Shown: positions 23,508-31,857 of the stretch, piece by piece | Numbering within the stretch: position 1 is the stretch's first letter | Layout of the letters: the number at the start of each line of letters is the position of its first letter | IMG/VR virus record: IMGVR_UViG_3300022867_000001 | Span: 1 to 40,762 of that record | Reading direction: 5' to 3' (one strand) | Source of the DNA: a virus | Lineage: Duplodnaviria > Caudoviricetes | DNA: 40,762 nt | Program-made: the position numbers and the translations under genes | Notes under the pieces: model-generated | Told to the model about the DNA's origin: nothing | The model's input: the letters and a program-made list of their open reading frames with translations, nothing else | Database searches by the model: none

Positions 23508-23581
23508 GGCTTCGTGGCGGAATGGTTACGCAGAAGATTGCAAATCTTTGTATCCCAGTTCGATTCTGGGCGAAGCCTCCA
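23508..23581 (+). tRNA. tRNA-Cys(GCA) with encoded CCA
   Basis: GGCTTCG/CGAAGCC acceptor, GCG/CGC D stem, GAAGA-TTGCAAA-TCTTT anticodon arm, TTCGATT T loop, U73, CCA. Confidence 0.95.
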
Positions 23582-27901: not shown

Positions 27902-28783
27902 TTAACTAGCTTTGTTAAAAGTGTTAAGAACATTTACTGCGTCTCGTAGATTATTAGGTATTAAATGTGAATACCTGCTAATCATTTTCCATGACTTATG
28001 ACCTAACATCTGACCAATAAAGTGAAGTTCTACTTTACCTGATTGAGCCATACGTGTTGCACAAGTGTGTCTTAAACAATGAATGACAAACTCTTTGTCG
28101 TCTTGAAGGTTCATTGCTTTTCTTAGTCTTCTCCAAGTATTCTCACAAGTCCAATATTTTAAATGTGAAAACACTAGGTCGTTTCTTCCTACCGCTTTTT
28201 TAAGTAACTTCTCAACGATTAACTTAGCACGTTCTGTTAAAGGTACACCTCTGGGCATATTGTTTTTAGTTACCTCTTTAGGTAAATTAACAACATAATG
28301 ACCATCTACATTGTGTATCATTAGCTTCTTAATAGATAACGCTTCGCCAAGCCTTAAACCGCTATCGATAAGAAAAAGATAGAACTCTAAATAATCAACC
28401 ATATTCCACTCGGTCAATAATTTAATTATTTCTTTTTCTTCGATTGGCTCAAGGTATCTTTCTCGTCCATTGTTACTTTCGTCCTGCCATTGAATATGAG
28501 GCATTCTATCTAAATGATAAATAGACTGTCTCTGATTGGCATAACGTAACATCTTAGAGATTGAGGACATATAACGATTAATAGTTGCAGGAGCAAAACC
28601 TCTGTCCTCCAACGTATCCACAAGATTTTCTATGTGGCTATCGTTAACTTCAGTTACAAGCATTCCCTTACCAAGCATATCAATTATTTTCTCGGCTCGT
28701 TTAGATTGCAACTTTTCCCAACCTTTAAGTGTTAACTTGCGGTGTATCTCCGTCAACAACTTGACATTTTTTGTCTGTTGCAT
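27902..28783 (-). CDS. int: Tyrosine integrase
   Basis: SGLRLGE (R), TKN (K), HCLRH (HxxR), LGHKS (H), RYSH (Y). Confidence 0.95.
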   Translation of the reverse strand: MQQTKNVKLLTEIHRKLTLKGWEKLQSKRAEKIIDMLGKGMLVTEVNDSHIENLVDTLEDRGFAPATINRYMSSISKMLRYANQRQSIYHLDRMPHIQWQDESNNGRERYLEPIEEKEIIKLLTEWNMVDYLEFYLFLIDSGLRLGEALSIKKLMIHNVDGHYVVNLPKEVTKNNMPRGVPLTERAKLIVEKLLKKAVGRNDLVFSHLKYWTCENTWRRLRKAMNLQDDKEFVIHCLRHTCATRMAQSGKVELHFIGQMLGHKSWKMISRYSHLIPNNLRDAVNVLNTFNKAS

Positions 28784-28804: not shown

Positions 28805-29152
28805 TTATTTGACCCATTCAAGAAGAGTATTGTGTACCCTTCTTCCCTTTGCTGTAAGACGCACAAGTTTTCTACGTCTTTCCATTGGGTCTTCAAAGTT
28901 CTCTAATAGACCTATCCCAACTTTTCGGTGTCTGTTGATAGTTGCTAACTTATAGCAATTTCTTGAAACACTTGATTGAGCTATGTCTAAAACCTCCGAT
29001 ATAGCTTGTTGAGCCACACCGTCTTTACCGCCTTTATCCGCTACATAGAAAAAAACAGATATAGCTTGAGCCTCTAACTGTGGGTCAAACTTTCTCATTT
29101 CTTCTATAATCTTCAAAAGATTATTACTCATTTTCTTTCTTCTTTCTTTCAT
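28805..29152 (-). CDS. MarR-like winged-helix protein (regulator or excision factor); start may be 29131
   Basis: QQAISEVLDIAQSSVSRN HTH; EDPMERRRKLVRLTAKG wing motif. Confidence 0.85.
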   Translation of the reverse strand: MKERRKKMSNNLLKIIEEMRKFDPQLEAQAISVFFYVADKGGKDGVAQQAISEVLDIAQSSVSRNCYKLATINRHRKVGIGLLENFEDPMERRRKLVRLTAKGRRVHNTLLEWVK

Positions 29153-29203: not shown

Positions 29204-29332
29204 TCACGATAAATACAACCTATATTTTCCAAAATCAATTATAGTTTCGTACTCATCTTTACTCACTTTTAGATTACTCCAAATATTATATTTTTCAATA
29301 TAGATTTTAAAAAGAATAAAATTGATATTCAT
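29204..29332 (-). CDS. Small hypothetical protein (42 aa)
   Basis: AAGGA SD; MNINFILFKIYIEKYNIWSNLKVSKDEYETIIDFGKYRLYLS. Confidence 0.6.
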   Translation of the reverse strand: MNINFILFKIYIEKYNIWSNLKVSKDEYETIIDFGKYRLYLS

Positions 29333-29345
29333 AATTATCCTTTTG

Positions 29346-29423
29346 TTAGTTGTTAATAGTATCGTGTACTAATAGTTGGTTACACCAAGCGTTATTAAAG
29401 GTGTAAATTATATATTTTCTCAT
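29346..29423 (-). CDS. Small peptide ORF (25 aa)
   Basis: Strong AAAGGAG SD; MRKYIIYTFNNAWCNQLLVHDTINN. Confidence 0.45.
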   Translation of the reverse strand: MRKYIIYTFNNAWCNQLLVHDTINN

Positions 29424-29444
29424 ATTTCTCCTTTCTTTTTGCTA

Positions 29445-29478
29445 ATGCTATCCTGTCGCACATAATATGTGCAATAGG
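29445..29478 (-). promoter_or_regulatory. Putative host sigma70 promoter overlapped by an operator-like palindrome
   Basis: TTGCAC-N18-TAGCAT; CCTGTCGCACATA-A-TATGTGCAATAGG inverted repeat at 29452-29478. Confidence 0.5.
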
Positions 29479-29498
29479 AAATAATGAGTTATTAACAT

Positions 29499-29559
29499 GC
29501 AAAATACACCGTCTAGTCTTTAGACGGCATTTCGGCTATTGAAGCCTCGTCAGTTTTGC
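29499..29559 (-). ncRNA. Hammerhead ribozyme, type I
   Basis: GCAAAA CUGACGA GGCU-UCAAU-AGCC GAAA UGCCGUCUA-AAGAC-UAGACGGUG UA^UUUUGC; full core and all three stems; predicted cut between 29505 and 29504. Confidence 0.9.
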
Positions 29560-29603
29560 TTTTTAGAACTTTTCCATTAGTCCTCCATTGTTGATTTTTG
29601 GAT

Positions 29604-29855
29604 TTAATCTCTGCAACCAATAGGTTCTGGTTTATTATGTAACACCCCACACCCTAATGGACTTAAATCGCAAAAAGGATACGCAGGACAACCTAAATGT
29701 TTTCTATCATTATCTAAGTTTTTTTTAGGTTTCTTTTTTTTAGCAGTGATTTTTGATTTCTTTTTCTTGCCAAAGATGGCGTCCCAATTCTCTTTGTATT
29801 TCTCTGAGGGTATGTGAACGCCGTCTCGTATTTTATAAGATTTAAAGCCTGACAT
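29604..29855 (-). CDS. Hypothetical basic, Cys-containing early protein (83 aa)
   Basis: ORF, TAATG-coupled to upstream gene. Confidence 0.6.
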   Translation of the reverse strand: MSGFKSYKIRDGVHIPSEKYKENWDAIFGKKKKSKITAKKKKPKKNLDNDRKHLGCPAYPFCDLSPLGCGVLHNKPEPIGCRD

Positions 29856-31799: not shown

Positions 31800-31857
31800 T
31801 TGTTTGTTTCAGCGTTGCTCCGCCTCGTCAGTGACGTATTAAACGCCATACAAACAA
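31800..31857 (-). ncRNA. Hammerhead ribozyme, type III
   Basis: UUGUUUG UA^UGGCGU-UUAAU-ACGUCA CUGACGA GGCG-GAGCAA-CGCU GAAA CAAACAA; predicted cut between 31849 and 31848. Confidence 0.9.

What the first reader, a model, noticed from the sequence alone, without database searches (positions are those of the whole stretch)
29476..29592. Four-codon mini-ORF (MEKF) overlapping the extended stem I of the type I hammerhead
Seen: a full early-type initiation signal (TCAACAATGGAGGA) drives ATG GAA AAG TTC TAA at 29577-29563, ending 3 nt before the ribozyme. The same bases (GGAAA, AGUU) can pair with AACU and UUUCC downstream of the cut, extending stem I beyond an internal loop. Established: distal stem I/loop II contacts govern hammerhead speed at low Mg2+. 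Inference: ribosome occupancy could gate cleavage just upstream of the lysogeny-control genes. Alternatively this is a remnant of a gene interrupted by the ribozyme.
Basis: partly seen in the sequence, partly recalled or inferred. Interest (0 to 1): 0.72.

Follow-up and report, generated by a model that had tools for sequence, protein, structure and literature searches.

The report
Empty gene slot before phage hammerhead
The four-codon reading frame is real but is likely the leftover of an emptied gene slot in front of a conserved hammerhead motif that is predicted to cut a marine phage's early message and to fold the freed end into a hairpin; ribosome control of the cut is possible but untested.

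Summary
The bases are as described: GGAGG-ACTA-ATG GAA AAG TTC TAA (29577-29563) ends 3 nt before stem I of a type I hammerhead (cut 29505/29504) in a T7-like HTVC019P-type pelagiphage, upstream of marR-integrase-RNAP. The proposed stem I extension is not supported: GGAAA:UUUCC has pairing probability 0.05 or less, the two words co-occur in 6 of 59 distinct homologues, and cognate flanks pair no better than swapped ones. A mini-ORF is present in 26 of 59; in 29 a full gene stops at or inside the ribozyme, and identical ribozymes occur with and without it. The same start module drives five full-length gene families in this slot, so MEKF is best read as an empty slot. A stop codon abutting stem I is the norm for phage hammerheads (69 of 88). 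What is conserved is a second, downstream copy of the stem I 5' strand that changes with stem I (58 of 58) and would fold the cut message's 5' end into a hairpin just before the next SD. Hammerheads in this gene context are known (Perreault 2011). Ribosome gating stays geometrically possible, about 15%.

The parts
29604..29855 (-). 83-codon early gene (MSGFKSY family); last full gene before the ribozyme, stop ends 50 nt before the core
29575..29594 (-). Reusable gene-junction module TCAACAATGGAGGACTAATG (SD GGAGG 29586-29582, TAATG stop/start overlap); here preceded by the in-frame tail IQKSTMED* of a gene that is intact in relatives
29563..29577 (-). Mini-ORF MEKF*; alleles MEL, VEL, ME, MGN in relatives; likely an empty gene slot
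29554..29559 (-). Stem I 5' strand GCAAAA, with conserved A at 29560
29505..29553 (-). Hammerhead core: CUGACGA, stem II (4 bp, loop UCAAU), GAAA, stem III (9 bp, starts with a U-G pair), GUA triplet; predicted cut between 29505 and 29504
29499..29504 (-). Stem I 3' strand UUUUGC = first six bases of the 3' product
29437..29504 (-). Predicted 5'-terminal stem-loop of the 3' product, closed by a second GCAAAA at 29442-29437; inner hairpin about 29480-29452
29346..29436 (-). SD AGAAAGGAG directly after the hairpin and a 25-codon ORF (ATG 29423), variable among relatives
29204..29332 (-). 42-codon ORF, annotated in several related phages
28805..29152 (-). MarR-like transcriptional regulator
27902..28783 (-). 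Integrase

Best explanation
MEKF is a real four-codon frame that is likely the by-product of an emptied gene slot: a reusable SD-TAATG junction sits directly before a type I hammerhead that is predicted to cut the early polycistronic message, after which a conserved downstream copy of the stem I strand would fold the new 5' end into a hairpin ahead of the next ribosome-binding site. Shown: the junction starts five full-length gene families in this slot in relatives; genes also run into the ribozyme in all three frames; the 6-bp stem I and the downstream copy change together. Inferred: ribosomes load at the junction and stop at once, at the same -9 register as full genes, which is tolerated and avoids reading past the cut; cleavage is largely constitutive; strand exchange releases the product, hinders re-ligation and shields the 5'-OH end of the marR-integrase(-RNAP) message.
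For: Mini-ORF in only 26 of 59 distinct homologues; 29 have a full gene stopping at -9 (4), +4 (15), +14/15 (6) or +41 (4); 4 have a short frame reading into the ribozyme. Four of 19 ribozyme sequences seen with a mini-ORF are also seen, base for base, without one. Peptide not conserved (MEKF 9, MGN 8, MEL 5, ME 3, VEL 1). L072 has the window's exact 19-nt start context driving an 82-codon gene whose TAA ends at -9 like MEKF; L082 does the same with the GGGGG variant. L042/L034 carry the SD and GTG AAT head of a gene that is intact in L125/L130, fused straight to the ribozyme. No SD-led mini-ORF at 43 of 43 family-2, 69 of 69 family-3 ribozymes, or 19 of 19 broad-sample ribozymes that lack a nearby long-gene stop. 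Stem I is exactly 6 bp in 58 of 58 family-1 and 64 of 93 broad-sample ribozymes. Downstream copy: 48 of 48 UUUUGC products and 10 of 10 UACAAC products carry their own complement (6.5 and 0.7 expected), the other type's in 1 of 48 and 0 of 10. Non-ribozyme hairpins in this genome also start 5, 12 and 18 nt after stops.
Against: No direct parent gene beginning with the MEKF, MEL or MGN bases was found. Start and stop persist in four sequence types with different middles, across two lineages whose stem I and product hairpin are fully replaced, with one ATG-to-GTG and one synonymous change; that is also what selection on a start-stop element would leave. 26 mini-ORF loci against 4 read-through ones. 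GGAAA and AGUU do co-occur with their proposed partners more often than not (6 of 10, 7 of 9), though these are copies of one allele. The 59 loci are recombining relatives, not independent cases. Cleavage, translation and product stability were not measured.
Confidence: 0.6

Rival explanations
1. Maintained ribosome landing pad, housekeeping: the mini-ORF is kept so that a ribosome terminates on the stem I 5' strand as after a full gene, helping strip the cut products apart or keeping transcription coupled to translation. Cleavage is not switched.
For: Every one of 59 loci has a start-led frame ending between -12 and +71; mini-ORF stops cluster at -8 to -12, the register of full genes (family 2: 30 of 43 at -5..-9; broad: 69 of 88 at -12..+15 against 8 for random anchors); start and stop kept in four sequence types.
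Against: Dense gene packing predicts the same; 19 of 88 broad-sample ribozymes have no nearby long stop and none has a mini-ORF; only 3 of 6 empty-slot alleles put the motif's TAA in frame (read), close to chance; the downstream copy already offers a release route.
Confidence: 0.22
2. Translation-gated switch: a ribosome at the MEKF stop holds the stem I 5' strand open during the 62 nt of transcription before the second GCAAAA appears; the downstream strand then captures UUUUGC and traps the ribozyme off, so translation rate sets how much marR-integrase message is cut.
For: Predicted stem I probability 0.8-0.9 until 60 nt past the cut, 0.35 at 70 nt, 0.20 at 100 nt; 0 with the stop-codon footprint blocked. 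The two helices are mutually exclusive and covary. An engineered hammerhead insulator that failed in E. coli was AU-rich and held a translated ORF (PMC7536230, passages).
Against: The next SD is exposed in both states, so only the 5' end would differ; blocking the initiation footprint hardly moves the balance (0.17 against 0.20); ribosome arrival point is unconstrained among homologues; no sensing codons; nearest-neighbour energies ignore the tertiary core.
Confidence: 0.13
3. One reading: mini-ORF bases pair with AACU and UUUCC to extend stem I, form the loop II contact and are melted by the ribosome.
For: AGUU:AACU and UAAUG:CAUUA are predicted in the window while the RNA ends 30-40 nt past the cut (0.45-0.94).
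Against: Lost by 60 nt; GGAAA:UUUCC never above 0.05; cognate flank duplexes -5.1 against -5.7 kcal/mol for swapped flanks, permutation p 0.99; the 5' flank is any of many unrelated gene ends.
Confidence: 0.05

Closest known systems
Clustered hammerhead ribozymes in prophage/phage operons (Perreault et al. 2011, PMC3088659; seen: sections 6 and 11 part 1, passages, supplement search)
   Same: Hammerheads flanking small early genes; their Agrobacterium prophage example has the same neighbours (ardA, marR, integrase) and cleaved in vitro and in E. coli; proposed role is processing of long transcripts.
   Different: The passages seen say nothing of an upstream mini-ORF, of stop codons abutting stem I, or of a downstream copy of stem I; no Pelagibacter or matching motif found in 11 supplements searched (one .doc file unreadable; alignments with gaps could hide a match).
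RiboJ insulator (engineered hammerhead plus 23-nt hairpin; PMC7536230 passages)
   Same: Hammerhead followed by a hairpin ahead of an RBS, giving a fixed 5' end and higher stability.
   Different: Synthetic; here the hairpin is natural, is closed by the stem I 3' strand itself and so competes with the ribozyme fold.
Leader-peptide attenuators and uORF switches (recalled)
   Same: Short ORF whose terminating ribosome would overlap one of two exclusive helices.
   Different: No conserved peptide or sensing codons, present in 26 of 59 homologues, no terminator or SD masking as output.
T7 early RNase III sites (recalled)
   Same: Processing signals between early genes of a T7-like phage, close behind stop codons.
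   Different: Self-cleaving RNA instead of a host nuclease site.

Membership tests
Type I hammerhead ribozyme | Core CUGANGA, GAAA and NUH triplet in type I order | tested here: met
   CUGACGA...GAAA...GUA; position 7 varies C/U/A in homologues
Type I hammerhead ribozyme | Three stems supported by compensatory change | tested here: met
   Stem I GCAAAA/UUUUGC vs GUUGUA/UACAAC; stem II GGCU/AGCC vs GGUU/AACC; first stem III pair U-G vs C-G
Type I hammerhead ribozyme | Rfam family score at gathering threshold | tested here: not met
   RAGATH-1 hammerhead 26.6 bits against 56.3, E 0.037
Type I hammerhead ribozyme | Stem I-loop II tertiary contact | tested here: inconclusive
   Conserved A at -7 and cut+7 (58 of 58) and AU-rich loop II suggest a local contact; not modelled
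Type I hammerhead ribozyme | Self-cleavage at the predicted site | not testable with these tools
   Only assembled RNA contigs were available
Regulatory leader ORF (attenuator type) | ORF conserved with the regulated structure | tested here: not met
   26 of 59; identical ribozymes with and without
Regulatory leader ORF (attenuator type) | Conserved peptide or sensing codons | tested here: not met
   MEKF, MEL, VEL, ME, MGN
Regulatory leader ORF (attenuator type) | ORF bases take part in a conserved alternative helix | tested here: not met
Regulatory leader ORF (attenuator type) | Ribosome footprint overlaps one of two exclusive helices | tested here: met
   Stop ends 9 nt before the core; footprint size recalled; exclusive helices
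Regulatory leader ORF (attenuator type) | Output depends on translation | not testable with these tools
   needs experiment
Remnant of a known early gene | Shares start context and stop register with full genes of the slot | tested here: met
   L072, L082
Remnant of a known early gene | Coding bases traceable to a parent gene | tested here: inconclusive
   No parent for MEKF/MEL/MGN among loci held; a traceable relic exists for L042/L034

The most novel reading that the evidence does not exclude
A natural translation-coupled ribozyme switch: the terminating ribosome (after a full gene, or after the mini-ORF when the slot is empty) opens stem I, a built-in downstream copy captures the freed strand, and the ribozyme is trapped off, so host translation activity sets how much marR-integrase-RNAP message is cut and stabilised in a temperate SAR11 phage.
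Probability: 0.15. Interest if true: 0.72.

Novelty: new variant of a known kind. Interest (0 to 1): 0.32.

Why it matters
The purpose of hammerheads in phage operons is still open (PMC6765202, passages). The mini-ORF itself adds little. The conserved three-strand layout does: it predicts a defined protected 5' end on the marR-integrase message of cultured pelagiphages, and one of them (HTVC022P) has a published infection RNA-seq series, so cleavage in vivo can be tested from existing reads. If translation gates the cut it would link host state to a candidate lysis-lysogeny operon.

Tried and rejected
Rfam at gathering score finds no hammerhead. First descriptor script had an offset error and printed nothing (fixed in 22). 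Scan of bacterial genomes for the family-2 ribozyme: 0 matches. RNA evidence: 24 runs held small shares only; 8 were laid, all contigs; none covers the ribozyme or mini-ORF; three contigs from three studies end at about 29473-29488, 16-31 nt inside the predicted 3' product, with no DNA run laid as control, so this is at most a weak hint and is not used as evidence. Idea that the palindrome at 29472-29458 is an operator inside a sigma-70 promoter: the scan calls no such promoter on the minus strand; G-U tolerant variation fits an RNA hairpin, but a host promoter before marR, as in LUZ100, is not excluded. Idea that GACTAGACGG is the phage RNAP promoter: found only in the early region, and it also serves as a GTG start context; rejected. 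Idea that the product hairpin is general to phage hammerheads: rejected, 3 of 93 in the broad sample. Idea that stops in all frames before the cut explain the mini-ORF: 45 of 59 have them anyway. Two distant pelagiphage regions (L186, L187) were fetched but not analysed for type I ribozymes. Literature searches for a prior description; none listed a paper on pelagiphage hammerheads, and 'ribozyme' does not occur in the three phage papers searched. The library lacks most subscription papers.

Full report
Setting. The window is a T7-like temperate pelagiphage of the HTVC019P type: the stretch matches 15 phage records, 14 of them Pelagibacter phages, and carries ardA, small early genes, a MarR-like regulator, integrase and RNA polymerase on the minus strand. 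Offsets below count from the C of CUGA (29553); a stop 'at -9' leaves 9 bases before it.

Observation. SD, ATG GAA AAG TTC TAA and the 3-nt gap are as stated. The type I hammerhead is the minimum-energy fold (z -3.4), scores weakly with Rfam (E 0.037) and is predicted to cut between 29505 and 29504. It is present at this place in 7 of 12 annotated phage records fetched, with compensatory changes in stems I, II and III.

Homologues. Pattern scans gave 42 viral and 72 metagenome loci. With earlier loci and the window there were 128 matches; 13 were dropped for short flanks; 59 are distinct over -60..+105. They are recombining relatives, not independent cases, and some may be the window's own genome (identical copies were counted once). 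26 have an SD-led mini-ORF (MEKF 9, MGN 8, MEL 5, ME 3, VEL 1; stops at -8 to -12), 29 have none, 4 have a short frame that reads into the ribozyme. In the 29 a full gene stops at -9 (4), in the core's own UGA at +4 (15), at +14/15 (6) or at +41 (4). In 6 mini-ORF loci a full gene also reads over the mini-ORF to +41/44. Of 19 ribozyme sequences seen with a mini-ORF, 4 occur unchanged without it.

The slot. The 'early-type initiation signal' is a reusable junction. It starts five full-length gene families (60-90 codons) just before the ribozyme in relatives. L072 has the window's exact context and an 82-codon gene ending at -9; L082 pairs the GGGGG variant with a 90-codon gene ending at -9. L042 and L034 keep the SD and first codons of a gene intact in L125/L130, joined to the ribozyme. 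In the window the junction is preceded by IQKSTMED*, the tail of a gene whole in L089 and L013. Against a pure scar: no parent for the MEKF, MEL or MGN bases was found, and start and stop persist in four sequence types, including an ATG-to-GTG change. Only 3 of 6 empty alleles have the motif's TAA in frame (my reading), so frame selection is not shown.

The claimed extension. GGAAA and UUUCC occur together in 6 of 59 (UUUCC alone 14, GGAAA alone 4); AGUU and AACU in 7 of 59 (AACU alone 17, AGUU alone 2). Cognate flanks pair no better than swapped ones (-5.1 against -5.7 kcal/mol, p 0.99; among 17 GCAAAA-lineage mini-ORF loci p 0.999). In the window GGAAA:UUUCC never exceeds 0.05 and AGUU:AACU is transient. 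Stem I is 6 bp followed by A opposite A in 58 of 58 family-1 products and is 6 bp in 39 of 39 of a second pelagiphage family and 64 of 93 unrelated phage hammerheads.

Stop codons at hammerheads. In the second family the upstream gene stops at -5..-9 in 30 of 43 (65 matches, 5 dropped). Plain hairpins in this genome also start 5-18 nt after stops, so packing is a sufficient reason. Earlier AI notes of this scan report the same theme.

What is conserved. The first six bases of the 3' product pair with a downstream copy of the stem I 5' strand: above the shuffle mean in 58 of 58 family-1 (0.90 against 0.49) and 37 of 39 family-2 products (0.86 against 0.68) (output partly cut, summary lines seen). 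The exact copy follows the stem type: 48 of 48, 10 of 10, 32 of 39, 20 of 36, 12 of 24, 6 of 8 for six types, against 6.5, 0.7, 3.0, 3.7, 1.2, 0.3 expected; 1 of 10 in four rarer types. It is not general (3 of 93). In the window the copy lies at 29442-29437, 62 nt past the cut, directly before the next SD. In uncut RNA it is predicted to outcompete stem I once made (0.20 against 0.70), without counting tertiary contacts.

Mechanism. Shown: anatomy, covariation, interchangeability of the slot. Inferred: the ribozyme folds and cuts during or after transcription; strand exchange frees the product and leaves a paired 5'-OH end, as the engineered RiboJ design does (PMC7536230, passages). From recalled footprint sizes, a ribosome with the stop in its A site would cover stem I's 5' strand; with that stretch blocked stem I falls to 0 and the downstream helix rises to 0.89, whereas an initiation footprint changes little. 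Gating is therefore possible, but any gene ending here does the same and the next SD is open in both states.

Known work. Perreault 2011 (PMC3088659; sections 6 and 11 part 1, passages, supplement search) reports tandem hammerheads flanking ardA near marR and integrase in an Agrobacterium prophage, active in vitro and in E. coli. PMC6765202 (passages) calls the bacterial role largely elusive. 10.1101/410191, PMC12753301 and PMC10134795 (passages) give integration, early expression of marR and integrase, and a proposed MarR role. The searches listed under Tried and rejected found no paper on pelagiphage hammerheads, the mini-ORF or the product hairpin; one earlier AI note describes a like hairpin in another marine phage. 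One .doc supplement of Perreault 2011 and bioRxiv supplements could not be seen.

Verdict. Interest 0.32.

Noticed in passing
window 31858-31801 (-): A second, type III hammerhead candidate just before the first early gene (core at 31831, GUA cut after 31849); Rfam Hammerhead_3 E 0.045, below gathering score; the minimum-energy fold is a different one (z -2.1); related motifs with changed stem I in L145, L169, L170.
   Followed up: partly
window 31551-31519, 30892-30860, 30200-30168 (-): Three copies of a 14-bp hairpin with a U tract and a further GACUU/AAGUC pairing option. It fills the same slots as family-2 hammerheads in relatives (before the MQI gene: ribozyme in 8 contexts, hairpin in 10; before ardA 3 and 1). 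Terminator, RNase III site or other processing element; no Rfam match at gathering score.
   Followed up: partly
window 30470, 30085, 29517 (-): Word GACTAGACGG repeated in early spacers; it forms the 3' strand of stem III and is also the SD-GTG start of the VNWK gene family in relatives.
   Followed up: partly
L019 (HTVC109P) about 2005-2065: What looks like a type II hammerhead, again abutting a stop codon, takes the place of the type I ribozyme; seen by eye.
   Followed up: no
L016, L017 (HTVC121P, HTVC105P) just after the last early gene: No hammerhead core; a plain hairpin resembling stem III starts right at the stop codon.
   Followed up: no
L008 907-960: Family-1 ribozyme with a degenerate stem II (missed by the scan pattern) but intact stem I and product hairpin.
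   Followed up: no
Viral contigs: About 3300 stored stretches are estimated to hold the core pattern; 93 of 140 sampled matches are well-formed compact type I hammerheads, often several per contig.
   Followed up: partly
window 32843-32720 (-): Tandem direct repeats of about 33 nt (TTACTCTTTAAGTACCACGCA...) upstream of the early region, possibly near the genome end.
   Followed up: no
window 23508-23578 (+): tRNA gene on the strand opposite the phage genes.
   Followed up: no
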